DNA of 64,000 nt from Pseudomonadota bacterium (GTDB lineage Bacteria; Pseudomonadota; Alphaproteobacteria; Caulobacterales; Parvularculaceae): NCBI GenBank assembly GCA_038531315.1, contig JBCBBT010000001.1, positions 30,469 through 94,468 on the forward strand, in the 5' to 3' direction. Below, piece by piece: positions 34,401 through 64,000 of the stretch. Made by a program: the position numbers and the translations under genes. The number at the start of each line of letters is the position of its first letter. Position 1 is the first letter of the stretch. The notes beneath the pieces were generated by a model. The model searched no databases, had not been told where the DNA came from, and saw nothing but the letters and a program-made list of their open reading frames with translations.

Positions 34401-34401
34401 C

Positions 34402-45842: not shown

Positions 45843-46493
45843 TCAGGCGCGCGCGATCGCGTAGCCCTTTTCCGTTTTGCGGGTGACGACGCCCTGAACG
45901 ACGCCGATTTTGACGGTTTCGCCAATATTGAGCGATTGCGTCGTGATGATTTCAATCCCGCTAAAGGAGATATTTGCAACTGAACAGCGAAAAACTTCAT
46001 TATTTGCGCGCGCACCGTCAATGAAATCAAGATCGACGGTGCGCCGCTCGTGTTGCCGTCTGTCGCTGATTTTGCCGCGCCGGTCAGAAAGGTCGCTTTC
46101 AATATCCTCGCGCGCAAAAAATGCTTCGATCGAGCGCTCGAGGCGCGCGAGTTTCGGCGTCGTCAAGTTCATTTTTACAGCGAAAGCGCCCTCTTCATGA
46201 CGCACGACGCGGCCTTCAAAGCGGCCGATTTCATCCATGTACGCGACGACCGTATCGCCGATATTGGGGAGTTTGCTGCCGCCAATCCGAAAGCCGTCCG
46301 GCGAGATATCGAGCAATTCGCCCTGATCTTCGAACCGGTCGATAACCATGAAACGCACCAGCGTATTAAGCTGACGGCGTTCGTGCTTGCGCCGATCATA
46401 TTTGCGCCGCGGCGGGACCGCTTCTCCCGAAAGACTGTCGAGCGATTCATCTAATGCGCGGTCTTGCCAACGGCTTTCAAGCGCTTCAGACAT
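45843..46493 (-). CDS. Tandem PilZ-domain protein (putative c-di-GMP receptor)
   Basis: Two RxxxR ... D/NxSxxG pairs: RRKHERR...DISPDGFRI and RRQHERR...ANISFSGIEI. Confidence 0.8.
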   Translation of the reverse strand: MSEALESRWQDRALDESLDSLSGEAVPPRRKYDRRKHERRQLNTLVRFMVIDRFEDQGELLDISPDGFRIGGSKLPNIGDTVVAYMDEIGRFEGRVVRHEEGAFAVKMNLTTPKLARLERSIEAFFAREDIESDLSDRRGKISDRRQHERRTVDLDFIDGARANNEVFRCSVANISFSGIEIITTQSLNIGETVKIGVVQGVVTRKTEKGYAIARA

Positions 46494-49672: not shown

Positions 49673-50211
49673 ACAAACTGTAGGAAAGTTTTCCGCATAT
49701 CCTGCTATCGCCCTGTTTTTCGCACGCTTTTTCTAAGGTCGCCAGGCGCAAATAAGTGCGCGCGCGCCGCGTCGCGGACACAGCCGCGAGCGCACGCGAT
49801 TTGCGCGCGACGCCATGTGTCGCCTTTTCCCGCGACTGTGTCCGCAAGCACGCAGTTCGATGACAGATTTATGATAAGACGCGGTCGCGCGACCGAAGAA
49901 TCGCCGCAGTTTTTGTTTCGCGGCGCTCGCCGCCACACGGCGACAAGCGGCCGTACCGAACCGAACGCATTTAACGAAGCGCCATGAAAAAGGGCGCACA
50001 AAAAATCATATCAAGGGGCGCGAAATGGCCAACGATAAAATCGCCATCTGGTTGCGTATTCGGCGATAGTGTCTCAGGGGGTTTTTGGGGGTTACGAGTG
50101 GCCAGTTAGGAATGGCCAATTACGAGTGGCGGATTATGATCGGCAAGTCAGCACACTGATTTCCGGATGATAGCGCTGGCTCTAGTTCGACGGGTCAAGA
50201 TAGGGAAAACC

Positions 50212-52596
50212 ATGTCACGCACAAAAATCTTTTTCATGAACACGATTGCGGCGACAGCAATGATCGCATCCAGTGCAATAGCTCAAGAAGGCGGGGGCCT
50301 TGATGAGATCACTGTCACGGCCACGCGCCAGAGCGAGAACCTGCAGGATATTCCAGTGTCCGTCGCCGTTGTGTCAGGTGAGAAACTCGATGTTCTCGGA
50401 TCCGGCGGCCTTGACGTCCGGTTTTTGTCGGCGCGCATTCCGAGTTTGCAAATTGAATCCTCCTTTGGACGGACCTTCCCGCGGTTTTACATTCGCGGCC
50501 TCGGCAACACCGATTTCGACCTCAACGCCTCGCAGCCGGTATCCCTCGTATTTGACGATGTCATCCTTGAAAACCCGATCCTCAAAGGGTTTCCTGTTTT
50601 TGACCTTGAACGGATCGAGGTGTTGCGCGGCCCGCAGGGCACGCTCTTTGGACGCAATACGCCGGCTGGCATCGTCAAATTCGATTCTAAGAAACCAACC
50701 GATGAATTCGACGCCTACGGACAGGTTTCCTATGGCCGGTTCAACGCCGTAAACTGGGAAGGCGCCATTGGCGGGCCGATCTCAGATACGCTTTCGGTGC
50801 GCGTTTCGACGCTTTTTCAACGCCGCGACGATTTTGTCGATAACCTTGCGCCGGGTTTTGAACAGGAAGACGCCCTTGAAGGCTTTAATGAGTTTGCCGG
50901 CCGGGCGCAGGTCTTGTGGGAGCCGAACGACCGTTTGTCCGTCCTCGGCAACGCCCATGGGCGACGCCTGCGCGGCACGGCGCGTTTGTTCCGCGCCAAC
51001 ATCGCGACCGGCGACAGCGACGGCGTCGCCGATACGCTGACTATCCAGAACGATCCGCTTGACCCGACGGCGGGATCGCAGACCTTTGATTTTGATCGCC
51101 AGCAGGCGTTTGTCGACGGCGTCAACTTTCAGGAAGTCAACGAATTCGGCGCCATCTTGAACGCGAGCTATGATTTCGGCCCTGTGACGCTGACGTCGAT
51201 TTCCGGCTATGAAAGCGCTGAAATTTTCACGCGCGGCGATATTGACGGCGGCACGGGCGATTTCTTCGAGGCGGACTTTTTGCAAAACGTTCTCGGCCTG
51301 CCGCCGACGCCGATTGGCCCCGGCGCCGGCGTAAACCCGCTCATTATCCCCTTCCGCGCCGATACGCAGGATAATATTCCGAGCCTCAATCAGTTGACGC
51401 AGGAATTCCGCCTCGCTTCAAACGGCGACGGGCGTTTCAATTGGCAGACCGGCTTCTTCTACTTCTACGAGGAAGTCGACATTGAAACGATCGACTTCGG
51501 CGATGAAGCGGTGGCGCCGGGCGAAGACACCCCGCAGGCGCTCTCGACGCAGACGCAGATCACGAATTCCTGGGCGCTTTTCGGCTCTGTCGATATTGAT
51601 GTGACCGACCGTCTCAATCTACGCGGCGGCGTTCGGTATACGGATGAGGAAAAGAGCCTATCCGCCTTTCGCCCGATCGATGGTCGCCCTGGGTTCCTCG
51701 GCTTTGGCGGGCCTTTCACGCCGCAACAGGTCGACACCGAAGACGGGGTCGTGAGCTGGGACGTATCGGCGACCTATGCGCTCGACCAGGACACCAACCT
51801 TTACGCGCGCATCGCCCGCGGCTTCCGCGCACCGAGTATTCAGGGCCGTATCGCCTTTTTTGCCTTCGACGGAACCAACGCCGCAAACTCGGTGACAGTC
51901 GGCGATACGGAAACCAACATCTCGTTTGAAGGCGGCATCAAATCGACGCTGGCCGGCGGGCGGGCGCGCCTTAATCTTGGCGGCTTTTATTACACCATCG
52001 ATAACCAGCAGCTGACCGCTGTGGGCGGCACGCAAAACTTCAACTCGCTGTTGAACGCGGATGAGACCGTCGGTTACGGGTTTGAATTCGATCTCGACTG
52101 GCAGGTGAACGACAATCTTCTCGTTACAGCGGGCACAAGCTACAACTTTACGGAAATTCGCGACCCCGGCCTGACGACGGCGGGGTGCGGTTTTCTTCAG
52201 TGCACGATCACCGACCCGTTCACAGTGGTTGGCGGCGTACCGATCGTGAATATTGACGGCAACCGCCTGCCCCAGGCGCCGCGCTGGATCGCCAACTGGA
52301 CAGCGCGCTACGGCGTTCCGTTCCGCGATGGCGAATTGTTCGTCTTCACAGACTGGGCGCTCCGCACCCGGGTGAATTTCTTCCTGTATGAGTCGCTCGA
52401 ATTCCAGGACGACTTCCTGATCGAAGGCGGCCTGCGGGCCGGCTATGTCTGGGCGGACGGCAAGCGCGAACTTGCGGCGTTCGGGCGCAACATCACGAAC
52501 GATCTGTCGCTTACGGGGGCGATCGACTTCAACAACCTCACCGGCTTTATCAACGAGCCGCCTACCTGGGGCGTTGAATTCAGAACCAGTTTCTAA
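50212..52596 (+). CDS. TonB-dependent outer-membrane receptor
   Basis: Signal peptide, TonB-box/plug region (LDEITVTATR, ERIEVLRGPQGTLFGRNTPAG), a long beta-barrel, and a terminal aromatic residue (EFRTSF). Confidence 0.92.
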   Translation: MSRTKIFFMNTIAATAMIASSAIAQEGGGLDEITVTATRQSENLQDIPVSVAVVSGEKLDVLGSGGLDVRFLSARIPSLQIESSFGRTFPRFYIRGLGNTDFDLNASQPVSLVFDDVILENPILKGFPVFDLERIEVLRGPQGTLFGRNTPAGIVKFDSKKPTDEFDAYGQVSYGRFNAVNWEGAIGGPISDTLSVRVSTLFQRRDDFVDNLAPGFEQEDALEGFNEFAGRAQVLWEPNDRLSVLGNAHGRRLRGTARLFRANIATGDSDGVADTLTIQNDPLDPTAGSQTFDFDRQQAFVDGVNFQEVNEFGAILNASYDFGPVTLTSISGYESAEIFTRGDIDGGTGDFFEADFLQNVLGLPPTPIGPGAGVNPLIIPFRADTQDNIPSLNQLTQEFRLASNGDGRFNWQTGFFYFYEEVDIETIDFGDEAVAPGEDTPQALSTQTQITNSWALFGSVDIDVTDRLNLRGGVRYTDEEKSLSAFRPIDGRPGFLGFGGPFTPQQVDTEDGVVSWDVSATYALDQDTNLYARIARGFRAPSIQGRIAFFAFDGTNAANSVTVGDTETNISFEGGIKSTLAGGRARLNLGGFYYTIDNQQLTAVGGTQNFNSLLNADETVGYGFEFDLDWQVNDNLLVTAGTSYNFTEIRDPGLTTAGCGFLQCTITDPFTVVGGVPIVNIDGNRLPQAPRWIANWTARYGVPFRDGELFVFTDWALRTRVNFFLYESLEFQDDFLIEGGLRAGYVWADGKRELAAFGRNITNDLSLTGAIDFNNLTGFINEPPTWGVEFRTSF

Positions 52597-52684: not shown

Positions 52685-54811
52685 TTATTGGTTGGCCGTT
52701 CCCTTCGGCTTGAGGACCGTCAGCCTTTCGCCGGGTCGGCGCTCATTTGAAATATCTTCAAGGACGCCGTTTTCCATTTTTAAAACGCGGTCGGCGATAC
52801 GGATCAGCTCCGGGCGATGGGCGATGACAAATTTTGTCATCGCCATCGATTTCAGGACAATGCCGATCTCTTTTTCAGCCGCTTCATCGAGATTGGCCGT
52901 TCCCTCATCAAGAAACAGCATCTCCGGATTTCGATAGAGCGCCCTCGCCAACAGCAGCCTCTGGCGCTGGCCCCCGGACAAGGCTGCGCCCATGTCGCCG
53001 ATATAGGAAAAATAACCCATGGGCATCGCCTCGATTTCATCGGCGATACGCGCGGCGGCCGCGGCCTTCTTCACACGCTCATCGTCAAGCTCAGGATCAA
53101 AAAAAGCAATATTTTCCGATATCGTGCCCGACAACAGATTATCGTCCTGCATGACAACGCCAATCTGTGAACGGAAGTTCCTCAATCCGTGCGCAGCAAT
53201 CGAACGACCGTCAACGAGGACGCTGCCGGAAGACGGCGCCAATAGGCCGAGCATCACTTTCAACAGTGTCGTCTTACCGCCGCCCGAGGGGCCCGTAAGG
53301 GCGACAAACTCGCCGGCGCCGATCTCAACATTCACATTCTCGAACACACAAGGTTCGTGCACGCTATAGCGAAAGCTGAGATTGTCGAGCTTCATCGCGC
53401 CCGTTAGCGCGGCTTGCCCGTGCGCAGCGGCGCGATCAAGGCCCTCCTCCCGCGGGGTTTGCACGATATCGGTCAGCCGGTCGACATGGAGCCCGAGCAT
53501 TCGAAACTCAATGCCCTTTTCAACTAGCCCCAATACGCGCTCGACGAAATTCTGCCTGTACGCCATGAATGCGAAAAGCATCCCGATGGTCATATCGCCG
53601 CTCATCACAAATAACGAGCCGGCGAAAACGATCAGCACCACCTGAAAGCCAAAGGCCAGCGCATTGGCCAGCTTCAGGATGATTGTCAGTTTTTCTTCCG
53701 CAATCGTCGCATTGACAACGCGGGTATAAGCATTGCGCCAACCCGCTTCGCGATCGGCCTCTCCGCCAAAAAGTTTAATCGCGCGGGCGCCGTTCAGCGT
53801 CTCCATCAGGAAAGTCTGCTCGACCGCCTTGTCGATAATCTTCTGCTCATTGCGACGGCGGAGCATAGGGAAAAGAATGAGCGATACGCCAGCGAATATC
53901 GCAGTCGTAAAGAATACGATCAGAGCGAGCCGCCAGTCGTAATAGATGATCAGCGCCGCTGTCGTCAGCGCCATCAAGCCATCGATCAAGGCTGCGACAA
54001 CGCCTTGCGTCATCGCTTCTTGTATCGGCTGCACCGACATCATGCGGGAAATAATGTCGCCCATGTGACGTTTTTCAAAATACGATGTCGGTAGCCTGAT
54101 CAAATGGCGCAGAACATTGCCGGCCATTTGAAAGGTCAGCGATTGACCGATCAGCAGGATGACGAGCGACCGCAGGGCTTCGGTCGCCGCGCTCAGGAGA
54201 TACAAAAACCCAAATCCCAGCGCGAGGATCAACAAAAAATTCTGGTCATATCGGATGATCGCTTCGTCGACGGCGATTTGCAGATAGAGCGGCAACGCAA
54301 GAACAAAGGCCTGATAAATAACCGATAGCAAAATGATTTGCGCCAGCGCCCTTTTGAGGCCGCTCATCTTGCTCCAGAAATCTGTCAACCGCGTACGGAC
54401 CAGATGTGATTGCGGTTTGAAGCTGGCCGTGGGCGAAAGCTCCAGCGCCACACCGGTGAAATGGCTTGACGCCTCCGACAGCGACATCTGAATGCGGCCG
54501 CGCGCCGGATCGTTGATCACAAGCTTGTCGCCGCGGGTTTTCACCAGAACGACAAAGTGGCTCATGTCCCAGTGTAAGATCGCCGGACAGGAGAGATCGG
54601 GCAGGCTCTCCAGCTCCAGCTTGACGGCGCGCGCGCTCAGCTCAAGGTCGTCAGCGATCGCAATGAGCTGGCGCAGCGTCGCGCCTTTTAACGACGGCGC
54701 ATATTTCTGTCGCAACTGAAGAATATCGATGTGGAGGCCATAATGTGAAGCGACCATTGCAAGACTTGCAAGGCCGCATTCGGTCGCTTCGCCCTGAATG
54801 ATTGTTTTCAT
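52685..54811 (-). CDS. lanT: Bacteriocin/lanthipeptide ABC exporter with N-terminal C39 leader peptidase (LanT/CvaB-like)
   Basis: C39 domain with catalytic Cys (QGEATECGLASLAM), His (HWDMSHFVVL) and Asp (NDPARG). It has six TM segments, Walker A GPSGGGKTTLLK, signature LSGGQRQRLLLARAL and Walker B MLFLDEGT. Confidence 0.92.
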   Translation of the reverse strand: MKTIIQGEATECGLASLAMVASHYGLHIDILQLRQKYAPSLKGATLRQLIAIADDLELSARAVKLELESLPDLSCPAILHWDMSHFVVLVKTRGDKLVINDPARGRIQMSLSEASSHFTGVALELSPTASFKPQSHLVRTRLTDFWSKMSGLKRALAQIILLSVIYQAFVLALPLYLQIAVDEAIIRYDQNFLLILALGFGFLYLLSAATEALRSLVILLIGQSLTFQMAGNVLRHLIRLPTSYFEKRHMGDIISRMMSVQPIQEAMTQGVVAALIDGLMALTTAALIIYYDWRLALIVFFTTAIFAGVSLILFPMLRRRNEQKIIDKAVEQTFLMETLNGARAIKLFGGEADREAGWRNAYTRVVNATIAEEKLTIILKLANALAFGFQVVLIVFAGSLFVMSGDMTIGMLFAFMAYRQNFVERVLGLVEKGIEFRMLGLHVDRLTDIVQTPREEGLDRAAAHGQAALTGAMKLDNLSFRYSVHEPCVFENVNVEIGAGEFVALTGPSGGGKTTLLKVMLGLLAPSSGSVLVDGRSIAAHGLRNFRSQIGVVMQDDNLLSGTISENIAFFDPELDDERVKKAAAAARIADEIEAMPMGYFSYIGDMGAALSGGQRQRLLLARALYRNPEMLFLDEGTANLDEAAEKEIGIVLKSMAMTKFVIAHRPELIRIADRVLKMENGVLEDISNERRPGERLTVLKPKGTANQ

Positions 54812-54851
54812 TGCGGCGTCCACAGATAAAAAATGGCCCGGTCCATATTGC

Positions 54852-56072
54852 TCAGGTCCCGGACTGCAAAAGGCGCCACATGCGCCGCCGCTCAAGCAAA
54901 ATGTCGGCCTTTAAAAGCATGCCCGCTTGCAGCGGAAAGCGATCGTCATTGAAGGAAATCGACTGCTCCTCGATATCGACTGTGACGCTGTAGACCGGCT
55001 CTTCAAGCGCAACCGAAATCGGCAGCTCGCTCGGATTATAAACCGACCGCGAAATGGTATTCACGGTGCCGCGCACGACGCCGAATTTCTGATGGGGAAA
55101 CGCGTCCAGGCGCAGGTTCACATCCTGGCCGGATTTTACAAAGCCGGCCGCACTGGTCGGCACGAACAATTCGACTTGCAGGTACCCGCCCTCCGGGATA
55201 AGCGCCATCAGCATTCTGCCGCCGCCGGCGGTCTGCCCTTTGCGTAGCGGCGCCGCGGCGATAGAGCCCGCGACGGGCGCCGTCAGAACGATGCTCCGGC
55301 TCGCTTCATATTCCGCGCGTTGACGTGAAAGCGTCTCCAACTGGTTTCTCAATTCCGACGCCGCCGCTTGCCGGTCGCCGGGAAGATCGACAAGCACCCC
55401 TTCCGCCTCCTCGATCTGACGGGTAATCGCCAGCCGCTCACGCCCCAGCTGGGTCTGGTTTTGCGTCAAAATCAGCAAGGCTTCTTCATGCTCAAGCACT
55501 TCGATATCGGACGCATTATCTTCGGCGGCGAGCGCGCGATAACGCCCGAGCACCTGATCAGCAATTCTGACGCGCTGCTTCTGGGCTCTTTCCTGTTGTT
55601 GGACGGCGGCCAGTTCAACCTTCAGGCTTTCGACGCGCGCCCTCAGCTGTCGCTCTTTTGCGTCATACTGTTTTTGAAGCGGCGCGAGGCGCTCATAAAC
55701 CTCGTTGTACTGCGCATTGAGGCTTTCCAGTTTCACGGTCGCAGCGCTTCGCCCGTCGGTCAGCGCGTTGTCGAAGTCAAGCGTCACAAGCCGCGCGCCG
55801 GCGGCGACCACATCGCCTTCTTTTGCATGAACTTCCTGGATTACTCCTTCTTGCGAAGAGACAATTCGTACAAGGCCTTTATCGGGGGCCAGCCATCCGA
55901 TTACCGTTTGCTTTCGCGTATAAGAAGCAAAGACCAGAAAAATGAGAAGGCCGATGAACAATAGCGATAATAGAAGCGTGATCGTCCAGTGAGATAACGG
56001 CGTATCAAGGCGCACTTCGCCGTAGAGGCGTTGCGTTTGTTTCTCGACGACTTCTTTTCGAAAAAGTGCCAT
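54852..56072 (-). CDS. HlyD-family secretion adaptor (CvaA/LcnD-like bacteriocin export accessory protein)
   Basis: N-terminal LFRKEVVEKQTQRLYGEV plus a TM segment, a long coiled coil, and a C-terminal beta-barrel (LLKADILLERRRMWRLL). Start placed at MALFRKE; the track ORF opens at 56093. Confidence 0.88.
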   Translation of the reverse strand: MALFRKEVVEKQTQRLYGEVRLDTPLSHWTITLLLSLLFIGLLIFLVFASYTRKQTVIGWLAPDKGLVRIVSSQEGVIQEVHAKEGDVVAAGARLVTLDFDNALTDGRSAATVKLESLNAQYNEVYERLAPLQKQYDAKERQLRARVESLKVELAAVQQQERAQKQRVRIADQVLGRYRALAAEDNASDIEVLEHEEALLILTQNQTQLGRERLAITRQIEEAEGVLVDLPGDRQAAASELRNQLETLSRQRAEYEASRSIVLTAPVAGSIAAAPLRKGQTAGGGRMLMALIPEGGYLQVELFVPTSAAGFVKSGQDVNLRLDAFPHQKFGVVRGTVNTISRSVYNPSELPISVALEEPVYSVTVDIEEQSISFNDDRFPLQAGMLLKADILLERRRMWRLLQSGT

Positions 56073-56114
56073 AGCGTTGATTATGACCGGCAAAATCCGT
56101 GATGACGAGGAATT

Positions 56115-59100
56115 TTAGCGCGGCGGCTCAAGCGCCAATATCGACGGCGTTTCGGGATCGGCGCACCGCAAGAGGCCATAACCGATCCCGGCGACGCCGG
56201 ACATCATGCCAAGCGGCTGCACCTGCGGGGCAAAACCGGTCCGCCAGCCGACTTTGGAGATGCTTTTGAGGACGCCGGCGGCGATCCGGTCGACGGCGTC
56301 CGACAAGTCCGGCTTGTCCAGTGCGGCCGCCATGACGCGCATACAATCGAGATTTCCAAAATCGCCGTGGCAAAGGCTGTGATTGCGGCCAAACCCTTCC
56401 GTGCGCGTCGTTGCGGCGGCTGTAAGAATCTCCTCGTCAACGTCGCCGCCGGACGGCGCCAGACCCTGCCGTTTCATCAGGGCCCGACTGAGACCGATCC
56501 CCGGCGCGCCGTGGCACCAGGCGACAACAAAGTTCTCAGATTGCGCTTCGGTTTCGCCGGGCCTCAGCCCTTCACGGACGTCGCGCCAATTGCCTTCTCG
56601 CGGGGCGAAAAGACTTCGATCATAGGCCAGCGCTTTCTCGCCAACTGCAGAAAATCGCTGGTCGCCAAATGCTTTGCCAAGCCGTCGCAATGCCAGTGCA
56701 ATGCCGGCAGCCCCGTGGGAAAATCCACCCAGCGGTTTTGGGCCGGCGACGTCCAGCAACCAGCCGGCGCCAGTTTCAGTTTCTACAACATTCGTCAGCA
56801 AATGGTCGCCGCAGGCAAGCGCATGGTCGCGCAGGTCGGGGTCGCCGCAATCGATCAGATTTAGCGCGCTTAACAAAAATCCGGCCGCGCCCCCCACGAC
56901 GTCGTAGATCCTGTCATCGCGCGCGAGCGTTTCGGCCGGCGGCAGCAGCTCCATGATGTCTGAGACAGTCGACGGATCATCCCACAACGACGACAAATGA
57001 TGCGCCGTATAGAGAAGGCTTCCCCATCCGGTGAAAGCGCCGATGCCGTCGACCTGTCGCCGCCCGCCGCGCAAGATAAATACCGTATTTCGCCAGGCCG
57101 CTTCAGCGATATCACGATAGGCGCCCTCGCCCGACGTCTTTGCAAGATAGGCGAAAAAGAGCGCCATGCCCGGCAAACCGGAATAAAGGTCCTCTCCAGC
57201 GTCGCGGTAGACCCAATGTACGCTTTCGCCAGGCACACACGTGAACCACGAGGCGCCGCCGCCGCCGCGAAAACTCAACCGCGCAAGATATTCAGCAACG
57301 TCCCTCGCGGCGTTCAGATAGTCCTGCGGCGGACAAACCGACGGCGCCGCATCAATGGGGTAATCTTCAAACCCGCCGGCGCCCGCATTCGCCGCGCGCA
57401 CGGACAGTGATTTCTCGATTAGCCAACTCTGTCGCAGCCGGTCGGCGGGGCCGAAGTTTTCGAGCTTTTCGGCCATCGTTTCGCGCGCTGAGACGGGGAA
57501 AAAATCGTCGAAGGTTTCACCATTGCAAGCTGTCAGCGACCGTTCGCCGACAAGCGTTGAAAAAGCCGGAATATCATTGCGCCAATAGGCTGCGCGCTCG
57601 GCTTCAGCGACGTGCGCCAGGACAGGATATCGCACGACATCGACCCAAAGCCGATCGAAATAAAGATCCCGCTCAAGCGCGTTGCCCAGCATTCGTGGAT
57701 GAAATGCGTCCGATAGTTGCAGCCCATAATAAAATGTCGGCCGCAGAATAATTCGGACCTGCGCATCGTCGAACACGCTGAGAGGTCCGCGCTTTGACAA
57801 TAAGAATTCTCGATTTTTCGCGAGCATGTCATAAGCGTCATGAAAGCCATCGAGGAGGTCGGCAAGGAAGTCGCTCGCGTCAACTGGCGCGCCTTGCAAG
57901 GTTGCGAGATGATTGCCAGGCGGGATCGGCGTCTTTTCACGTATTAGCCGCATGCGATCCGTACCGGGATCAGCAATGACGAGCAACGCCACAGACGATA
58001 ACTGGTCGCCCGCGGTCAAGCCGCCGATATCGACGCCGTCGCGGGCGTCGCCGGTTTTCCAAATCTGTTGCGGCAAGAGGCCAGGCCCGAGAACTGACCT
58101 GAACACTTCGTTTCCTGGCGGCGCATGGTCGCCGAGAAATCCAAGTAACGACAAATCTGGCTGGATCAGCGTTTCAAGATCGACGAGCATGGGAAACGCG
58201 CCGGCGGCGATAATGTTCTCGTGGTGAAAGTCGCTCGCGTTGAACAGATAAAGCAAGCCCAAATAAGCGCCTTGCCGGTAGAAAAAATCCTTGACCTCGC
58301 CTGCGTCAGCGCAGGGCTTTTGCTCGATATATTCGACCCAGCCATATCCATCTTGCGCCAGGACCTGCGGGAGCTTCAGGTCTTTTTTCAGATCCTGCGC
58401 ATTCACCCAATCAATGAAGCCTGCGAATGCGCAATAGATCGAGAGCGACTGCGGCCGATATACGAGTTTCTCCCCCGTTGAAAATTTTAGGATCGATACA
58501 GATCGTCCGCCATGGTGATCATCGCCAGCTTCAAGCACAATTGACGCAAGCTGTTTTGCCTCCCCCGAAAAGAACATTTCGAAAATCGCCGCTTCATCGC
58601 GAACGTAGGCGTCCAGCAGCTCGCTGACAAAGCGCTCCCATTGCGCAATCGCCTCCAGCAAGAGCCTCAACAGCACCGGATAAGCCTCAAGCAACGTGTT
58701 CCGGTAGTCGGGCTCACCCACAAGCGCGCAGAAATGATCGAAACGGGCCCGCGGCGTTGTTCCGTCTAATTCCTTGTGCTCTCGCTTGCGTTCCAGTTCT
58801 TGCAGAAGCGCGCGCTGCGCCATTCTCGCGACTTTGCCCAGCAGAAATGAAAATGCGTCGTCGACAAATTCCCGCCTGTTTAGGTGGGATTGCGCACCCG
58901 CCGCGACGCTATATTGGTCAATCCGGGCATAGGCGGCGGCTAACTCAGGGCCGACAAGCGCCGGGAAAACCTCAAGGTGTTCGGCGTTCGCCGGCGGAAT
59001 GCGCGCTAACAACTCACGCCATTTTTCGTCATAGCCGCCAGTTTCGCGGACATGCTCTTGGGGGATATGGCCGACAATGTTGCCGTGTAACGCATGGTTG

Positions 59101-59549
59101 TCGCGTGACGCACGGCTATCAGATGACGCATTGACCAGATCGTCCTGCGTGCGGCGCTTAGTTTCTGGATTCACGGAGAAAAGCCGCCGACCGGTATCGT
59201 TGTCCGAAGCGCCCGCAAGTTCCGCCGGCGTCGGTTCTAACGACAGAACATCGATAAAACCCTCAAAGGTGAGGTCGGAGGCTTCGAGGCGCCGGCTAAA
59301 AACATCGTCATTTTCAAAGGGACGTTGCGCGCGCCACCGCTGCACCAAATCTAGCAAGTCAATGTTCGAGCCGCGCGTTGCGTAATTTTCATGCTTATCG
59401 ACGTGCAGCGCCTCAGCACCCAGCCCATCGACATAATTGTCGCCGCCGTCGCTAACGAGGCCACGCGACATCGTGCGCGCTGCAATCAGTTTTTTTCGGT
59501 CGTTAAGGTTTAGAGCGCGTGCGCGCGATCCCATCTTGCGTTCCAACAT
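56115..59549 (-). CDS. lanM: Class II lanthipeptide synthetase (LanM: dehydratase plus LanC-like cyclase)
   Basis: Dehydratase region motifs GDDHHGGRSV, YRPQS, DFHHENIIA and LVDLET. The C-terminal cyclase carries GFSHGAAGIALAL, WCHGAPGIGLSR and SLCHGDFGN (Cys/Cys/His zinc ligands). It is about 1140 aa; the start could be the second ATG at 59534. Confidence 0.93.
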   Translation of the reverse strand: MLERKMGSRARALNLNDRKKLIAARTMSRGLVSDGGDNYVDGLGAEALHVDKHENYATRGSNIDLLDLVQRWRAQRPFENDDVFSRRLEASDLTFEGFIDVLSLEPTPAELAGASDNDTGRRLFSVNPETKRRTQDDLVNASSDSRASRDNHALHGNIVGHIPQEHVRETGGYDEKWRELLARIPPANAEHLEVFPALVGPELAAAYARIDQYSVAAGAQSHLNRREFVDDAFSFLLGKVARMAQRALLQELERKREHKELDGTTPRARFDHFCALVGEPDYRNTLLEAYPVLLRLLLEAIAQWERFVSELLDAYVRDEAAIFEMFFSGEAKQLASIVLEAGDDHHGGRSVSILKFSTGEKLVYRPQSLSIYCAFAGFIDWVNAQDLKKDLKLPQVLAQDGYGWVEYIEQKPCADAGEVKDFFYRQGAYLGLLYLFNASDFHHENIIAAGAFPMLVDLETLIQPDLSLLGFLGDHAPPGNEVFRSVLGPGLLPQQIWKTGDARDGVDIGGLTAGDQLSSVALLVIADPGTDRMRLIREKTPIPPGNHLATLQGAPVDASDFLADLLDGFHDAYDMLAKNREFLLSKRGPLSVFDDAQVRIILRPTFYYGLQLSDAFHPRMLGNALERDLYFDRLWVDVVRYPVLAHVAEAERAAYWRNDIPAFSTLVGERSLTACNGETFDDFFPVSARETMAEKLENFGPADRLRQSWLIEKSLSVRAANAGAGGFEDYPIDAAPSVCPPQDYLNAARDVAEYLARLSFRGGGGASWFTCVPGESVHWVYRDAGEDLYSGLPGMALFFAYLAKTSGEGAYRDIAEAAWRNTVFILRGGRRQVDGIGAFTGWGSLLYTAHHLSSLWDDPSTVSDIMELLPPAETLARDDRIYDVVGGAAGFLLSALNLIDCGDPDLRDHALACGDHLLTNVVETETGAGWLLDVAGPKPLGGFSHGAAGIALALRRLGKAFGDQRFSAVGEKALAYDRSLFAPREGNWRDVREGLRPGETEAQSENFVVAWCHGAPGIGLSRALMKRQGLAPSGGDVDEEILTAAATTRTEGFGRNHSLCHGDFGNLDCMRVMAAALDKPDLSDAVDRIAAGVLKSISKVGWRTGFAPQVQPLGMMSGVAGIGYGLLRCADPETPSILALEPPR

Positions 59550-59560
59550 CTGAAACGACA

Positions 59561-59585
59561 GGCCGGCCTCAAAAAGAGGCCGACC
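59561..59585 (-). terminator. GC-rich hairpin between the precursor gene and lanM (candidate attenuator)
   Basis: The minus-strand RNA is GGUCGGCCUC-UUUUU-GAGGCCGGCC (10-bp stem, one mismatch). It lies 16 nt after the lanA stop and 11 nt before the lanM ATG. Confidence 0.6.
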
Positions 59586-59600
59586 CTTGATCGTCGCCGA

Positions 59601-59786
59601 TCAATAGCAGTGCTTCGGCGGGCAAGGCGAGCTAAACGGCGACGGGCCGCCGCAACCGCCGGAAACGCTGGCGAGCGCTTCGTCGTCGAGCTCGAGAATA
59701 TCCCCGGCCGCGCTCTTCTTCGGCTCGGCAAGTGCTTCTCTCTTCTTGGGGTCACGCAACGCTTTGAGCAAGTCTTCTTTTTTCAC
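59601..59786 (-). CDS. lanA: Lanthipeptide precursor peptide (LanA), double-glycine leader plus a 17-aa Cys/Ser/Pro-rich core
   Basis: MKKEDLLKALRDPKKREALAEPKKSAAGDILELDDEALASVSGG | CGGPSPFSSPCPPKHCY. GTG start 4 nt after the strong SD GAAGGAGG. It sits immediately upstream of lanM, and I translated it by hand from the DNA. Confidence 0.85.
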   Translation of the reverse strand: MKKEDLLKALRDPKKREALAEPKKSAAGDILELDDEALASVSGGCGGPSPFSSPCPPKHCY

Positions 59787-59916
59787 AAGTCCTCCTTCAG
59801 CGACGCAGAGGTCACTGTTGTTAATGTAAAAATGCTAGACACTCTAAGGCTTGAAAGAAGTCTTTGACGCCACTCGCATTGAGCAATACTAGCTATACGG
59901 ATCAAAAACGTCTTCC

Positions 59917-59930
59917 GTTTACAGGTAAAC
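59917..59930. promoter_or_regulatory. Perfect inverted repeat GTTTAC-AG-GTAAAC in the AT-rich region upstream of lanA
   Basis: 6+2+6 palindrome about 130 bp upstream of the lanA start, within a 280-bp stretch of markedly lower GC. Confidence 0.4.
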
Positions 59931-60066
59931 ACCTTTTTCATTCGCCAACAAGTAAAAAATCGATCATGTCGGCTCGACGCCCGGAGTAAACTACACGGTG
60001 TACAAACTTTTACCTGATCGTTTTCAAACCGCTGGCTACGCATCAATGCGGAAACCGGCGCCAAAA

Positions 60067-61626
60067 TCAGCCAAGCATTGCGACGATTCGGCGCGCAACT
60101 CGGAAACTGTTGGCGAGAATCGTCAGCGTCGGCGGGGAACCGCCGGACGTCGGCATAAAGGAGCCGTCGACAACGAAAACCCCCCGGGTCCCGTGGAGTT
60201 GGCAATCCCTATCGAGCACGGAGACCGACGGATCAACGCCAGCGCGGCACGTGCCCATGACAAGATAGGACGATGTCGCACCGATATCGGTGAGCTTTAC
60301 AGATGTCGCGCCTACATCTTCGAGGATTTCCCCAGCGCGCGCGCCAAGCCATGCGCCGACTTTTCTGTGATGCGGATGCGGATCGAGGTGTATCCGCGCG
60401 ACCGGCAGTCCCCAACGGTCTGTGACGTTATCATCTAACTCAATAAATGTGTCATCCGTAGCGAGATAATCGTGGAAAACTTCAAAGTGTAGACGCTTTG
60501 ACCGACCATCATGACGCGCGTCGTCGTCCGGCCTTAGCTGCGGTTCAAAATCAAAGCGGATGACGCCGCCCTTTGCCAGCGCGCAGACATCGTCCGGCAG
60601 GAAGTAATAATCCATGACTGAGCGACCGACGAAGGGATCGCCGCTCTCGTCAGCATTGCCGGCGCCTTGCGGCAGGTCGCCATGGCCCATGGTGACCGCG
60701 TGAAATTGCAAATTGCGGCCAACGAGACCATTGTCGTTGCCGAGGCCGTCAGGAAACCGGGCCGATTTTGACAACAAAAGAAGGCGCGCCGATTCAATGG
60801 CTGAGGCGCAGATGCAAACGATCTTCGCTTCGACTTCAATGTCAGCGCCGGCCTCGTTGCGGTAAACAACGCCCTTTGCGCCGCTATGTCCGACGCGCAC
60901 CTCGCGGACCATTGCATTTGCTTCAACGCGGCAAAAACCGGTTGCTTCCGCGCGCGGCAACAGGGCTGCCTGCGTTGACCCGCGCGCGCCCGTCGGACAA
61001 CCGAACCCCGCACATGACGGGCAATAGGAGCACGCCGGCCGGCCCTGATACGCTGATGAATTCACGGCGCGCGGCGTCGGGAAAGCCGTGAGCCCGCGCG
61101 CCCTGCATGCGCTTTCAATATCGGCGGCGATCGGATGGGCGCGCAACGGGGCCATCGGATAGGCCGACGAGCGCGCGCCTTCGAACGGGTTGGCGCCGCT
61201 AAGACCGCTGACCCCCGCCTCACGTTCCGCCTCTGTGTAGAAGGGCTCCAGGTCGTGATAGCCAAAGGGCCAGTCGGCAAGCCCGAAGCCGCCTCCAAAG
61301 CGAGACCGCATCCGGAAATCATCCGGATGAAACCGATAGAAGTAAGCGCCCATATGCGCCGTTCCGCCGCCGACGCATGAGGCGACCCAGCCCAGCGTTG
61401 TCCGGTGCGCCATTGTCGTTTTTTTGGTTACAACAGTGTGGGGATCATCTTCAATCGAGGGCGTGAACAGGCCGTGTTCAATGACAAGCGGGTCATGAAC
61501 ATAATCGTCCGGATCAAAGCGCGGGCCTTTTTCAAGGACCAGCACGTTCTTTTTCGCCTGCGACAAGCGCAACGCCAACGGGCCGCCGCCCGCGCCGCTT
61601 CCAATGATGACAACATCAACGCGCAT
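60067..61626 (-). CDS. GMC-family FAD-dependent oxidoreductase
   Basis: N-terminal dinucleotide fold VDVVIIGSGAGGGPLALRL, and the length and C-terminal region are typical of GMC oxidoreductases. Start placed at MRVDVV; the track ORF opens at 61680. Confidence 0.85.
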   Translation of the reverse strand: MRVDVVIIGSGAGGGPLALRLSQAKKNVLVLEKGPRFDPDDYVHDPLVIEHGLFTPSIEDDPHTVVTKKTTMAHRTTLGWVASCVGGGTAHMGAYFYRFHPDDFRMRSRFGGGFGLADWPFGYHDLEPFYTEAEREAGVSGLSGANPFEGARSSAYPMAPLRAHPIAADIESACRARGLTAFPTPRAVNSSAYQGRPACSYCPSCAGFGCPTGARGSTQAALLPRAEATGFCRVEANAMVREVRVGHSGAKGVVYRNEAGADIEVEAKIVCICASAIESARLLLLSKSARFPDGLGNDNGLVGRNLQFHAVTMGHGDLPQGAGNADESGDPFVGRSVMDYYFLPDDVCALAKGGVIRFDFEPQLRPDDDARHDGRSKRLHFEVFHDYLATDDTFIELDDNVTDRWGLPVARIHLDPHPHHRKVGAWLGARAGEILEDVGATSVKLTDIGATSSYLVMGTCRAGVDPSVSVLDRDCQLHGTRGVFVVDGSFMPTSGGSPPTLTILANSFRVARRIVAMLG

Positions 61627-61709: not shown

Positions 61710-62741
61710 ATGACCGATACCGACACATCAACCACGCCGCCTGACGCCGCAGCCGAGGACCGGTTTCGAAAACTCGCCAATGCCTATCAGATTTCCTGCG
61801 CCGTGAACGCAGCGGCGCGACTGCGGCTATACGAAAATCTGGACCATGCGCCGGTTCCGGCCAACATATTGGCGGAACGCGTTGGCGCGAGCGCCGGACC
61901 GTTTCGGCGACTACTCGATTTTTTGGCGCAACTCGGCGTGGTACGGATCAATTCCAGCGCTCACGTATCGCAAACCGACTTAACGCCGTTGCTCGCATCT
62001 GTTGACTCGATTGCAGAAGGTGATCACGCCGTCGACGCGTGGCAAGCCTTGCCCGAGGCGCTCAAAACCGACAAGACGCCTTTTGAAGTTGCGCATGGCG
62101 CGCCATTTTACGCCGTTGCGAAAAACAACGACGCCCGGGCGGCGGCCTGGATCGATCGGAACCGTCGGATCGCGGCGCGCTGGGCCGGTCCTGTGGCCGA
62201 CGCGCTTCCTTTGCGCGCTGGCGCACGGATCGCCGATCTCGGCGCCGGCAATCTGGCGCTTGCGCGCGCCGTCGCGCGCCGCCAGAACGACGCCGACATC
62301 ATTGTTGCGGACTTGCCTTTTGTCATCGAGGAACTCGGCGGCGCCGATCGATCGCCCCTCGACGACCGCCACATCAGTCTGCTCCCGTGTAATCTTCTGG
62401 AAGACCCGATCCCCGAAGCAGACGCGTTTACACTGTCACGCGTGCTCTTGAATTTCGGCGATAAAGACGTGATCGCGATCTTGCAAAAATGTCGTCAGTC
62501 GCTGCGCGAAGACGGCAGGATATTTATCGCCGAAACCCTGATGCCGGCGCCAGACGACCCGCGCCGGGCCTTCCAGGCGGCGCACGATCTTCATCTTCAC
62601 GTATTGTGGGGTAGCAAACAGCGCACCTTCGAGGCCTTCGCCGAATTGATAACTGAAGCAGGCCTCGCCCCTACAGAAACAATCGACGTTTTCGATCAGG
62701 GCCAATCTCTGTGCACCGTCGTCGTTGCAGGCCACAGATAA
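61710..62741 (+). CDS. Class I SAM-dependent O-methyltransferase (COMT/ASMT-like, with N-terminal dimerisation/winged-helix domain)
   Basis: 343 aa. An N-terminal helix-rich region is followed by a SAM motif I-like IADLGAGNLALARAV and acidic loop IVADLP. The overall pattern matches small-molecule O-methyltransferases. Confidence 0.8.
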   Translation: MTDTDTSTTPPDAAAEDRFRKLANAYQISCAVNAAARLRLYENLDHAPVPANILAERVGASAGPFRRLLDFLAQLGVVRINSSAHVSQTDLTPLLASVDSIAEGDHAVDAWQALPEALKTDKTPFEVAHGAPFYAVAKNNDARAAAWIDRNRRIAARWAGPVADALPLRAGARIADLGAGNLALARAVARRQNDADIIVADLPFVIEELGGADRSPLDDRHISLLPCNLLEDPIPEADAFTLSRVLLNFGDKDVIAILQKCRQSLREDGRIFIAETLMPAPDDPRRAFQAAHDLHLHVLWGSKQRTFEAFAELITEAGLAPTETIDVFDQGQSLCTVVVAGHR

Positions 62742-62860: not shown

Positions 62861-63127
62861 AACGATCAAGCCTATGAGTATGACGCTGAAAACCGCCTCA
62901 ATAAGGTGTTCGCGTCTGCGGGCGGGGCGCAGATCGCCGGTTATTTCTACAACGCCGACGGCACCCGCCGCTATTCCAATGAGCAGACCCAGCAGCATGC
63001 GTATTACGATGGCGACCAGGAGATCTACAACACCGACGGCGCCGGCGGCTCAAACTTCGATCTCAACGACGTGATCCGCCGCTATATCCGCCTGCCCGGC
63101 CCGCGCGCGAAGCCGCGCTTTCTATAA
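62861..63127 (+). pseudogene. RHS/YD-repeat fragment (5'-truncated, ends at an in-frame TAA)
   Basis: The frame reads YEYDAENRLNKV...GYFYNADGTRRYSNEQ...YYDGDQEIYNTDG, which are YD repeats. There is no upstream RHS shell, and a stop lies at 63125-63127. The RHS reading continues in another frame from 63132. Confidence 0.65.
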
Positions 63128-63167
63128 GTAACATCGCCTTCGCGATCGGGTCGATGAAGTATTGCTG

Positions 63168-64000
63168 ATGATCGACTATGCGGCCGGCAATCCGGACGGC
63201 GGCGCAGACGGCAAAGAGGTCTGGGCCCACGCCGACCGCCTGGGCACCGTCGTCGCAACCACGGATGCGTTTGGAGTGGTCATCGACCGCTATACCTACT
63301 CCCCCTACGGAGAAGTAGGCCCGGAAGGCTCAAGCGGTTTCCCCTTCCGCTTCACCGGCCAGCGCATCGACGCCGCAACCGGGCTCTATTACTACAAAGC
63401 CCGGTATTACGCCCCCGAAGTCGGCAGATTCCTCCAGACCGATCCGATTGGGTATGAGGATCAGCAGAATTTGTATGCCTATGTCCACAACGATCCGGTG
63501 AATTCCACGGATCCTACTGGAGAATGTGGAGCTTCGCCTTATGCTTATCACCATATTCCTTTTTGCCAAGGCATTGCTTCTGTTACTCAAGCGTATGCTA
63601 ATTTTGCTCAGCACAGTTATAATCTAAGGAGTGCTGACCCTAGAGTTCGCGCCAGAGCCAAAGCCGTAAATAATGCTTTGCTCGTGGCGAGCAGGTTCTT
63701 TGCTAATAACCCTGTCGAGTCGGTCGAATTAGCTGCAAAAGGCGTTAAGGAGAATAGAGCCTTTGCTGCAGGCCGTACGGTTGCGAGTATTGGTCTCGGT
63801 GTTGCGCAAACTAGAGGCTCCGGTGCAGCTGGTGCTGCAGCGGCGGGTCTCGCGGTCGCTAATTTTTCTGTAACTCAAGTTGGTAGCGCGATAGGCGCAA
63901 TTGATGGTCTTTTTAGTAAAATTGAATCAAGAGGCTTCGACCCTTCGGCACTTTCTGATGATGCCATTGTAAATGTATTTTATGCAGGTGCTTCAGGCAT
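63168..64000 (+). CDS. RHS repeat-associated core end plus C-terminal polymorphic toxin domain (3' end outside window)
   Basis: Hand translation gives [11 protein letters not shown]...[60 protein letters not shown], followed by an unrelated AT-rich-codon domain ([16 protein letters not shown]...). The frame is open from 63132. Confidence 0.75.

What the first reader, a model, noticed from the sequence alone, without database searches (positions are those of the whole stretch)
52685..59786. Complete class II lanthipeptide gene cluster with Gram-negative (CvaAB-like) export in an alphaproteobacterial genome
Four co-directional, tightly spaced minus-strand genes form a full set to make, modify, cleave and export a lanthipeptide. 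First is a 61-codon precursor with a strong SD. Second is a ~1140-aa LanM, with dehydratase motifs GDDHHGGRSV, DFHHENIIA and LVDLET, and a LanC-like cyclase carrying GFSHGAAG, WCHGAPGIG and SLCHGDFGN. Third is an HlyD-family adaptor. Fourth is an ABC exporter whose N-terminal C39 peptidase retains its Cys/His/Asp triad. Characterised lanthipeptides come mostly from Firmicutes, Actinobacteria and cyanobacteria. A proteobacterial cluster using a microcin-style three-component exporter is unusual, especially with a single short precursor and no recognisable LanFEG/LanI immunity or LanKR regulation. The cluster sits in an accessory region between a TonB-dependent receptor gene and an RHS toxin remnant, which suggests a role in interbacterial competition. 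I cannot tell from the sequence alone whether this product has been described.
Basis: partly seen in the sequence, partly recalled or inferred. Interest (0 to 1): 0.85.

Follow-up and report, generated by a model that had tools for sequence, protein, structure and literature searches.

The report
Thiazole-type class II lanthipeptide gene cluster
The four genes are a real class II lanthipeptide (ring-containing peptide) cluster, but it also includes two overlooked neighbours: a flavoenzyme 58% identical to one shown in 2026 to build a thiazole ring exactly at the predicted leader-cleavage site, and a methyltransferase.

Summary
lanA (59601-59786), LanM (56115-59534; TIGR03897 835 bits against a cut-off of 304), an HlyD adaptor and a C39-peptidase ABC exporter are all intact on the minus strand.

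The cluster is not complete as described. Both stay next to lanA-lanM in three lineages (LanM 44-57% identical) whose outer flanks differ.

The GMC protein is 58% identical over its full length to ThaO and 62% (partial sequence) to TheO. Those enzymes were shown in 2026 (PMC13083261) to turn Gly(-1)-Cys1 of a LanM precursor into a thiazole. The window precursor has the same GG-C-G junction. All five GMC homologues whose neighbourhoods I inspected sit beside LanM. Cys at core position 1 tracks with the presence of the GMC gene.

The likely product is a thiazole-bearing, two-ring, possibly methylated lanthipeptide. Its core ends in a widespread but uncharacterised motif, [ST]PCPPxHC[YL]. The thiazole would consume the bond that the C39 peptidase normally cuts, so leader removal is unresolved.

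Verdict: a new variant of a recently described kind, of moderate interest.

The parts
52685..54811 (-). Bifunctional exporter: N-terminal C39 peptidase, ABC transmembrane domain and ATPase (708 aa from the ATG start)
   Evidence: Pfam Peptidase_C39 2.4e-35, ABC_membrane 2e-36, ABC_tran 5.6e-31. Best solved structure is PCAT1 4ry2, E 2.6e-97, with the Cys/His/Asp motifs aligned. The start is set by the 708-aa gene call in the 99-100% identical contig L009. 79% identical in L002.
54852..56072 (-). HlyD-family periplasmic adaptor (406 aa)
   Evidence: Pfam HlyD_3 2.3e-17 and HlyD_D23. TIGR01843 type_I_hlyD scores 122 bits, below its cut-off of 208. 59% identical in L002.
56115..59534 (-). LanM class II lanthipeptide synthetase (1139 aa): dehydratase plus LanC-like cyclase
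   Evidence: TIGR03897 834.6 bits (cut-off 304), DUF4135 plus LANC_like. LicM2 6st5 E 2e-105, with WCHGAPG and SLCHG aligned. C1007, C1055 and H1056 are invariant in alignment A1.
59560..59586 (-). G+C-rich stem-loop with 11 base pairs just after the lanA stop codon; probable attenuator or mRNA-stabilising hairpin between lanA and lanM
   Evidence: Fold of 59535-59605: -37.5 kcal/mol, z -6.6, 0 of 200 shuffles fold as well. Hairpins of 12-13 bp occupy the same place in L002 and L006 despite different sequence. Function is inferred.
59601..59786 (-). lanA precursor (61 aa): double-glycine leader, GG-C-G junction, core CGGPSPFSSPCPPKHCY
   Evidence: Homologues P0076-P0078 are 72-87% identical. 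Leader and GGC are shared with ThaA and TheA. TIGR03898 scores 19.4 bits, below its cut-off of 23.5.
59787..60066 (-). Intergenic region upstream of lanA, with sequence blocks conserved between the window and L002 (candidate promoter or operator)
   Evidence: Alignment A4. No consensus sigma-70 site was found here. Function is inferred.
60067..61626 (-). ThaO-type GMC-family FAD oxidoreductase (519 aa); predicted to convert Gly(-1)-Cys1 of LanA into a thiazole
   Evidence: GMC_oxred_N/C domains. 58% identical over 519 aa to ThaO (P0118) and 62% over 369 aa to TheO. 75% and 63% identical in L002 and L006. All five GMC homologues whose neighbourhoods were inspected lie next to LanM. The chemistry is inferred from PMC13083261.
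61710..62741 (+). Methyltransf_2-family SAM-dependent methyltransferase (343 aa), divergent from the operon; candidate extra tailoring enzyme with unknown target
   Evidence: Pfam Methyltransf_2 3.9e-25 plus Dimerisation. Nearest structures are 6c5b, DnrK and MmcR. It holds the same divergent position in L002/L005 (49-51% identical), L006/L007 (40-41%) and L011 (35%).

Best explanation
This is a six-gene chromosomal cluster for a thiazole-containing class II lanthipeptide. Steps 1, 4 and 5 below are inferred from sequence and conservation. Steps 2 and 3 are inferred by homology to experimentally studied enzymes. Nothing has been shown for this locus itself.

1. lanA is translated into a 61-aa precursor. 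A conserved hairpin after its stop codon probably raises lanA message over the downstream genes.
2. LanM binds the mersacidin/lichenicidin-like leader and dehydrates Ser5, Ser8 and/or Ser9. It then closes two thioether rings onto Cys11 and Cys16, within the conserved [ST]PCPPxHC[YL] tail.
3. The ThaO-like GMC flavoprotein oxidises Cys1. The sulfur closes onto the Gly(-1) carbonyl and water is lost, giving a thiazole (-20.03 Da) at the GG-C-G junction.
4. The divergent methyltransferase probably adds a methyl group at an unknown site. This is the least certain step, about 50%.
5. The C39-ABC pump and HlyD adaptor, with an outer-membrane channel encoded elsewhere, export the peptide.

The thiazole uses the amide bond that a C39 peptidase normally cuts. 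So either cleavage moves to another bond, or cleavage and thiazole formation compete.
For: - Family models and catalytic motifs for LanM, C39-ABC and HlyD.
- The GMC protein is 58% identical over its full length to ThaO and 62% (partial sequence) to TheO. L097 was confirmed as the published tha cluster, with ThaA and ThaO sequences matching the paper's supplement.
- The paper shows by mutagenesis, isotope labelling and NMR that ThaO makes a thiazole from Gly(-1)-Cys1. In TheA, G(-1)A and G2A impair the reaction while G(-2)A does not. The window precursor reads S-G-G-C-G-G.
- The block OMT-GMC-lanA-lanM is conserved in the window, L002/L005 and L006/L007, with unrelated outer flanks.
- All five inspected GMC homologues are adjacent to LanM: P0131, P0096, P0123 and P0148 (chosen by GMC similarity and contig length) plus P0118, later identified as ThaO itself. 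All have GGC precursors.
- 0 of 80 metagenome loci with a LanM 32-39% identical carry a GMC gene. Their plausible precursors do not start with Cys, whereas 9 of 10 precursors in GMC-linked clusters do.
- Hairpins after lanA in three lineages.
Against: - No expression or chemistry data exist for this locus.
- The ring pattern is only inferred. The core has 3 Ser and 3 Cys, so other patterns are possible.
- ThaO needed ThaM while TheO did not. The order of steps here is unknown.
- The methyltransferase is absent from five other GMC- or PCPP-type lineages (L010, L013, L094, L095, L096). Comparing cores with and without it gives no clue to its target.
- An intact C39 triad beside a junction that would be made uncleavable is unexplained.
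- No outer-membrane factor, immunity gene or regulator is seen in the block.
Confidence: 0.75

Rival explanations
1. This is a plain class II lanthipeptide system. LanM modifies the peptide, the C39 domain cuts after GG and the peptide is exported. The GMC oxidoreductase and methyltransferase are unrelated neighbours.
For: The four genes alone form a recognised minimal set. The leader has the canonical hydrophobic residues at -4, -7, -12 and -15 and an intact C39 triad. The paper's authors saw no clearly conserved cluster architecture when querying with ThaA and ThaO.
Against: The GMC protein is better conserved than LanM across lineages: 75% and 63% against 57% and 44%. It stays adjacent while outer flanks change. 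It is 58% identical to ThaO. All five inspected GMC homologues are LanM-adjacent. Cys at core position 1 tracks with the presence of the GMC gene.
Confidence: 0.07
2. This is a thiazole-lanthipeptide cluster of five genes. The methyltransferase is a bystander or acts on a small molecule unrelated to the peptide.
For: The methyltransferase is absent from L010, L013, L094, L095 and L096, and from the tha cluster (L097) within 10 kb; the paper's text and supplements never mention a methyltransferase. Its nearest structures are small-molecule methyltransferases: LaPhzM-like 6c5b, DnrK and MmcR. Near-identical cores occur with it (L006, CCYPGQTTALCSPCPPQYCL) and without it (L013, CCQPGQTTVICTPCPPKVCL).
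Against: It holds the same divergent position next to the first operon gene in three lineages: the window/L002 clade, L006/L007 and L011 of an Acidobacteriota genome. Identity is only 35-51% and the outer flanks differ.
Confidence: 0.35
3. The peptide is a metal-binding or otherwise receptor-recognised molecule that is re-imported through the adjacent TonB-dependent receptor, by analogy with methanobactin-type peptides, rather than an antibiotic.
For: A TonB-dependent receptor lies convergent to the exporter here (50167-52596). One lies shortly after the precursor gene (one gene between) in L094 and 6 kb downstream in L006. The core has a thiazole nitrogen and a conserved His.
Against: No receptor gene is seen in L002, L013, L095 or L096. 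Such receptors are numerous in these bacteria. If the predicted rings form, no free thiol is left in this core. There is no metal-related gene in the block.
Confidence: 0.06
4. The cluster is silent or decaying and makes no product.
For: No expression data exist. No regulator is visible. It lies in a lower-G+C stretch next to an RHS remnant.
Against: All six reading frames are intact with catalytic motifs. Copies 99-100% identical recur on several independent metagenome contigs. The block is under evident purifying selection across 44-79% identical orthologues.
Confidence: 0.1

Closest known systems
tha and the clusters (ThaA/ThaM/ThaO; TheA/TheM/TheO) of Thermoanaerobaculia, Nature 2026, PMC13083261
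   Same: A mersacidin/lichenicidin-like leader ending in GG followed by Cys. A LanM synthetase (36% identical to ThaM). A GMC flavoprotein 58% and 62% identical to ThaO and TheO. A C39-type exporter in the tha cluster. The G-C-G context matches that of TheA.
   Different: The core is unrelated to ThaA (CSGICTYGGWPTCFCC) and TheA. Here it is a short PCPP-type core ending SPCPPKHCY. A conserved divergent methyltransferase is present, and the paper never mentions one. A separate HlyD adaptor is present. [quoted passage not shown] The host is a Pseudomonadota genome rather than Acidobacteriota.
Lichenicidin beta / LicM2 and the mersacidin-lichenicidin class II lantibiotics
   Same: LicM2 (6st5) is the best solved-structure match of the LanM (E 2e-105). 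[quoted passage not shown] Both have a double-glycine leader and a C39-ABC.
   Different: The precursor scores below the TIGR03898 cut-off (19.4 against 23.5). From my own knowledge, the core lacks the lipid II-binding TxS/TxEC-type ring of mersacidin. A thiazole-forming GMC enzyme is present. The export system is Gram-negative.
Colicin V CvaAB and PCAT-type double-glycine peptide exporters
   Same: C39 peptidase, ABC pump and HlyD-family adaptor, with the outer-membrane channel encoded elsewhere. The catalytic triad is conserved.
   Different: The cargo is a modified lanthipeptide. The predicted thiazole would remove the bond normally cut. The closest NCBIfam models (NHLM_micro_ABC1, type_I_sec_HlyB) are matched only below their cut-offs.
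YcaO/dehydrogenase azole formation, and LanD-type flavoproteins of AviCys peptides
   Same: The end product is a backbone thiazole, as with YcaO systems. The proposed chemistry is flavin-dependent oxidation of a Cys, as with LanD (mechanism discussed in the paper's supplement).
   Different: There is no YcaO, no ATP-dependent cyclodehydratase and no HFCD-fold LanD here. The enzyme has a GMC fold, closest to the FAD-glucose dehydrogenase alpha subunit (8hdd/6a2u, E about 4e-49 to 8e-49).

Membership tests
Class II (LanM) lanthipeptide gene cluster | Single bifunctional synthetase with a DUF4135 dehydratase domain and a LanC-like cyclase domain | tested here: met
   TIGR03897 834.6 bits (cut-off 304). 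PF13575 1e-110, PF05147 5.6e-61.
Class II (LanM) lanthipeptide gene cluster | Cyclase zinc ligands (Cys, Cys, His) present | tested here: met
   WCHGAPG and SLCHG align with LicM2. C1007, C1055 and H1056 are invariant in 9 LanMs.
Class II (LanM) lanthipeptide gene cluster | Adjacent precursor with a leader and a Ser/Thr- and Cys-containing core | tested here: met
   61-aa ORF 51-66 nt upstream of lanM (depending on the lanM start), with 3 Ser and 3 Cys in the 17-aa core. It is conserved in homologous loci.
Class II (LanM) lanthipeptide gene cluster | Dehydration and thioether rings actually installed | not testable with these tools
   Needs co-expression and mass spectrometry.
ThaO-type thiazole-forming GMC oxidoreductase system (PMC13083261) | GMC-fold FAD enzyme closely related to ThaO/TheO | tested here: met
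   PF00732 plus PF05199. 58% identical over 519 aa to ThaO. 62% over 369 aa to TheO.
ThaO-type thiazole-forming GMC oxidoreductase system (PMC13083261) | Encoded next to a LanM and its precursor | tested here: met
   280 nt upstream of lanA on the same strand. The same adjacency holds in L002, L006, L010, L013, L094, L095, L096 and L097.
ThaO-type thiazole-forming GMC oxidoreductase system (PMC13083261) | Substrate motif Gly(-1)-Cys1 (with Gly2, as in TheA) at the leader-core junction | tested here: met
   ...SVSGG-C-GGPS. The requirement is documented. Cys1 co-varies with GMC presence.
ThaO-type thiazole-forming GMC oxidoreductase system (PMC13083261) | Thiazole (-20.03 Da) formed on the peptide | not testable with these tools
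   Needs co-expression, MS/MS and NMR.
[quoted passage not shown] | Score at or above the curated cut-off of the family model | tested here: not met
   19.4 bits against a cut-off of 23.5, E 7.5e-4. The resemblance is in the leader only.
C39-peptidase ABC exporter with HlyD adaptor (CvaAB/PCAT type) | N-terminal C39 domain with catalytic Cys, His and Asp, then a transmembrane domain and an ATPase | tested here: met
   Pfam domains. Alignment to PCAT1 4ry2 with ECG, SHFVV and NDP conserved.
C39-peptidase ABC exporter with HlyD adaptor (CvaAB/PCAT type) | Membrane-fusion (HlyD-family) partner gene adjacent | tested here: met
   HlyD_3 2.3e-17. It scores below the curated cut-offs of TIGR01843 and TIGR03794.
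C39-peptidase ABC exporter with HlyD adaptor (CvaAB/PCAT type) | TolC-like outer-membrane channel | not tested
   None lies in the conserved block. It may be elsewhere in the genome, which is not available.
Methyltransf_2 (COMT/DnrK-like) SAM-dependent methyltransferases | Dimerisation domain plus Rossmann methyltransferase domain with a glycine-rich SAM motif | tested here: met
   PF08100 plus PF00891. DLGAGN aligns with DIGAGYG of 6c5b. The substrate is unknown.

The most novel reading that the evidence does not exclude
The thiazole is built across the very Gly-Cys bond that the intact C39 peptidase should cut. That would force an undescribed way of removing the leader. Examples are cleavage one residue upstream, leaving an N-terminal aminomethyl-thiazole, or a branch point where thiazole formation and cleavage yield two different exported products. 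The conserved methyltransferase would add a further, so far unreported, methylation to a widespread uncharacterised PCPP-type lanthipeptide scaffold.
Probability: 0.3. Interest if true: 0.65.

Novelty: new variant of a known kind. Interest (0 to 1): 0.5.

Why it matters
GMC-type thiazole formation in ribosomal peptides was reported only in February 2026, for two Acidobacteriota clusters. The authors saw no conserved gene neighbourhood, and the mature natural products were not determined.

This locus and its relatives add three things.
- The enzyme family is tightly and broadly tied to LanM clusters. There are more than 2000 homologues at E < 1e-60, and all five inspected lie beside a LanM.
- Cys at core position 1 is a predictor of the modification.
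- A large uncharacterised precursor family, GG-C...[ST]PCPPxHC[YL], exists in Pseudomonadota, Myxococcota and Acidobacteriota.

The window offers a compact six-gene version with its own C39 exporter and a conserved methyltransferase. That makes it a convenient system for two questions: how a leader is removed when its scissile bond has become a thiazole, and what the methyltransferase does. The thiazole-forming enzyme also has biocatalytic interest.

Tried and rejected
- Megablast of the 10-kb block against plasmids gave no match. The window carries the dcw cell-wall cluster, so it is chromosomal.
- An Rfam scan of the window found nothing.
- RHS adjacency: the fragment is real, but it lies beyond the methyltransferase and is not conserved in related loci. 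I rejected it as part of the system.
- TonB-dependent receptor linkage: present in 3 lineages and absent in 4, so not retained.
- Searching 80 metagenome loci with related LanM for GMC or methyltransferase genes found none. I used this as a negative control, not as evidence against the link.
- I tried to infer the methyltransferase target by comparing cores with and without the gene. No discriminating residue emerged; Tyr is not universal.
- A consensus sigma-70 scan found no convincing promoter upstream of lanA.
- Literature searches combining lanthipeptide with GMC, methyltransferase, Alphaproteobacteria or myxobacteria found only PMC13083261 as relevant.
- A second precursor gene was searched for in all six frames of the window. 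None was found.
- The exact taxon of the window could not be fixed.

Full report

Yes. Four minus-strand ORFs lie at 52685-59786.
- The 61-codon ORF (59601-59786) starts at a GTG, 6 nt after AGGAGG. It encodes VKKEDLLKALRDPKKREALAEPKKSAAGDILELDDEALASVSGG-CGGPSPFSSPCPPKHCY.
- The large ORF matches DUF4135 (1e-110) and LANC_like (5.6e-61). It matches the LanM model TIGR03897 at 834.6 bits against a cut-off of 304. Its best solved relative is LicM2 (6st5, E 2e-105), with the WCHGAPG and SLCHG zinc-ligand motifs aligned.
- The third ORF carries HlyD_3 and HlyD_D23 domains.
- The fourth carries Peptidase_C39, ABC_membrane and ABC_tran domains. It aligns end to end with PCAT1 (4ry2, E 2.6e-97), with its Cys, His and Asp motifs conserved.

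Gene calls on homologous contigs move three starts: LanM to 59534 (1139 aa), HlyD to 56072 (406 aa) and ABC to 54811 (708 aa). Only one precursor-like ORF exists in the whole window.

**2.

The region between lanA and the RHS remnant is not empty.
- The RHS remnant itself is real: YD repeats and a core-end motif at 62861-63998, +.
- 60067-61626 (-) encodes a GMC-family FAD oxidoreductase.
- 61710-62741 (+) encodes a Methyltransf_2 methyltransferase with its dimerisation domain.

The arrangement methyltransferase (divergent) - GMC - lanA - lanM recurs in three places:
- a 99-100% identical metagenome contig (L009);
- a Parvularculaceae MAG and a Pseudomonadota MAG (L001/L005 and L002; LanM 56-57% identical);

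Identities of the window proteins to L002 and L006 are:

| Protein | L002 | L006 |
|---|---|---|
| GMC | 75% | 63% |
| Methyltransferase | 49% | 40% |
| LanM | 57% | 44% |
| HlyD | 59% | absent |
| ABC | 79% | absent |

Genes outside the block are unrelated in the three contexts. So the conserved unit is larger than reported, and the GMC gene is its best-conserved member after the ABC.

**3. What the GMC enzyme is**

A full-text search found one paper linking GMC enzymes to lanthipeptides: Nature 2026, PMC13083261. It reports the following.
- In the tha cluster of a coral-associated Thermoanaerobaculia MAG, ThaM installs two (methyl)lanthionine rings.
- The GMC oxidoreductase ThaO then removes 20.03 Da by converting Gly(-1)-Cys1 into a thiazole. 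The evidence is a C1A mutant, isotope labelling and NMR.
- In a second cluster, TheO does this without TheM. G(-1)A and G2A impair the reaction while G(-2)A does not.

Looking up one of my GMC hits, P0118, returned GCA_977880245, the genome named in that paper. The neighbouring 64-aa gene translates exactly to ThaA, and P0118 matches the ThaO sequence printed in the supplement.

The window GMC is 58% identical to ThaO over 519 residues. It is 62% identical to the available part of TheO. The window precursor reads S-G(-2)-G(-1)-C1-G2-G3, which is the TheA context.

**4. Is the link general or a coincidence?**

The GMC query found 2056 proteins at E < 1e-60, many 55-63% identical. I chose four by GMC similarity and contig length only: Myxococcus stipitatus P0131, plus P0096, P0123 and P0148. 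All four lie directly beside a LanM and one to two precursor genes. The fifth neighbourhood inspected, P0118, is ThaO itself beside ThaM.

As a control, I fetched 80 metagenome loci by LanM similarity (32-39% identical to the window LanM). None has a GMC or this methyltransferase.

A pattern scan for precursors showed co-variation.
- In GMC-linked clusters, 9 of 10 non-redundant precursors begin their core with Cys.
- In the 80 GMC-free loci, no plausible precursor does. The single Cys-first hit lies antisense inside a LanM gene.
- L029 has a PCPP-type core that begins with Ile and has no GMC gene.

Cys1 therefore tracks the enzyme, as expected if Cys1 is its substrate.

**5. The precursor family**

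The cores of GMC-linked relatives are:

| Source | Core |
|---|---|
| Window | CGGPSPFSSPCPPKHCY |
| L002 | CGGPSPFSTPCPPRHCY |
| L006 | CCYPGQTTALCSPCPPQYCL |
| L013 | CCQPGQTTVICTPCPPKVCL |
| L094 | CSYGTFCPTSAICSPCPPKHCY |
| L095 | CSVLEGCPTSAICTPCPPKHCY |
| L096 | CCTVDYCTGPSCNGTAICTPCPPHHCL |

A profile of the window-clade precursors found 26 representatives among 1.84 billion cluster representatives. Most carry GG-C and the tail C[ST]PCPPxxC[x].

ThaA and TheA share the leader but not this core. So the PCPP-type scaffold has, as far as the held literature shows, not been studied.

If Cys1 goes to the thiazole, the window core keeps Ser5, Ser8 and Ser9 against Cys11 and Cys16. This suggests two rings, most simply Ser8-Cys11 and Ser9-Cys16. 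That assignment is inference only.

**6. The methyltransferase**

It belongs to the DnrK/MmcR/LaPhzM-like family and has a recognisable SAM motif.

It occupies the same divergent position in the window clade and in L006/L007. It does so again in L011, a second LanM cluster of the ThaO genome that has PCPP/GGC precursors but no GMC gene within 10 kb.

It is absent from L010, L013, L094, L095 and L096 and from the tha cluster (L097) within 10 kb; the paper does not mention a methyltransferase for either the tha or the 'the' cluster.

I judge a tailoring role to be about as likely as not. Its target could not be inferred.

**7. Export and the cleavage paradox**

The leader has the canonical double-glycine signature: Val-4, Leu-7, Leu-12 and Ile-15. 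The C39 triad is intact. On its own, this predicts cleavage between Gly(-1) and Cys1.

But in ThaA and TheA the thiazole is made from exactly that amide. The paper released its peptides with trypsin and AspN and did not determine the natural mature product. How the leader is removed from a thiazole-bearing peptide is open, and it is the most interesting question this compact cluster could answer.

**8. Other features**
- A strong hairpin follows the lanA stop codon (z -6.6). Hairpins sit at the same place in L002 and L006.
- Sequence blocks upstream of lanA are conserved with L002.
- The GMC enzyme carries CxxCxxCxxxxC where the FAD-glucose dehydrogenase alpha subunit has its Cys-rich segment. 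From my own knowledge, that segment ligates a 3Fe-4S cluster.
- The window is chromosomal, with the dcw cluster at 20-28 kb.
- The block has lower G+C than the 1-30 kb part of the window.

**9. Verdict**

The locus is a new variant of the ThaO-type thiazole lanthipeptide systems described in 2026.

It differs in five ways:
- an uncharacterised PCPP-type core;
- a conserved methyltransferase;
- a separate HlyD adaptor;
- no TheB-like gene;
- a Pseudomonadota host.

A proteobacterial LanM cluster is not surprising in itself. Interest is moderate at 0.5. The enzymology is already published, but the family's breadth, the Cys1 rule, the methyltransferase and the cleavage paradox are new and testable.

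Noticed in passing
window 62861-63998 (+): RHS/YD-repeat C-terminal fragment. It has the conserved core-end motif (...[46 protein letters not shown]) followed by a C-terminal tip with no Pfam match. It is split over two frames and runs off the window end. It is not conserved next to the cluster in related loci.
   Followed up: partly
window 60067-61626 (-), residues about 196-212 (RPACSYCPSCAGFGCP); also ThaO and TheO: ThaO-type GMC enzymes carry a conserved CxxCxxCxxxxC motif. It aligns with the Cys-rich segment of the FAD-glucose dehydrogenase alpha subunit (8hdd/6a2u), which from my own knowledge binds a 3Fe-4S cluster. The sections of the 2026 paper that I read describe the enzyme as FAD-dependent and do not mention an iron-sulfur cluster.
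   Followed up: partly
L011 (TARA scaffold; same genome as the tha cluster, GCA_977880245) 8749-17265: A second LanM cluster lies in the ThaO-encoding genome: divergent methyltransferase, LanM, two GGC/PCPP-type precursors (CSFWGACPTSSICTPCPPNYCH and CSFWGACPTSAICSPCPPLQCH) and a long C39-ABC. There is no GMC gene within 10 kb, so ThaO might act in trans.
   Followed up: partly
L029 6623-6709; P0223, P0225, P0227, P0243: PCPP-type cores exist without Cys at position 1, for example IATRLDTCSAICTPCPPRHCF. In L029 there is also no GMC gene on the contig. The PCPP ring module and the thiazole therefore seem to be separable.
   Followed up: partly
window 50167-52596 (+); L094 14552-16447; L006 19307-21604: A TonB-dependent receptor gene lies near the cluster in three lineages but not in four others. 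This could be chance or a possible uptake link.
   Followed up: partly
L008 1037-5783: A LanM 43% identical to the window's (P0004) sits with a different precursor (leader ...LDLVAGG, core SNCDTTGATIGGFTICTDEDHNVHTDSSDIND) and a weak ATP-grasp-like 336-aa gene between lanA and lanM. It has no GMC or methyltransferase gene. It may be another tailoring variant.
   Followed up: no
window 59787-60066 (-): The region upstream of lanA contains blocks conserved with L002, for example TGTACACCG..GTTTAC, ACATGATC..TTTTTT.ACTTGT and GTCTAG.ATTTTT. These are candidate promoter or operator elements. No sigma-70 consensus site was found.
   Followed up: partly
window 20334-27754 (-), 33216-37569 (+), 38000-46000: Also in the window: a dcw cell-wall cluster (three Mur ligases and an FtsI-like PBP); an RND efflux pair (membrane-fusion protein plus AcrB-like pump); and a lower-G+C stretch (0.55) with a polysaccharide flippase-like gene, an O-antigen-ligase-like gene and a PilZ gene.
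   Followed up: no
P0220 (2456 aa), P0230 (764 aa), P0241 (272 aa): Large proteins with 4-8 repeated matches to the leader part of the LanA profile. They were not examined and may be low-complexity or repeat artefacts.
   Followed up: no
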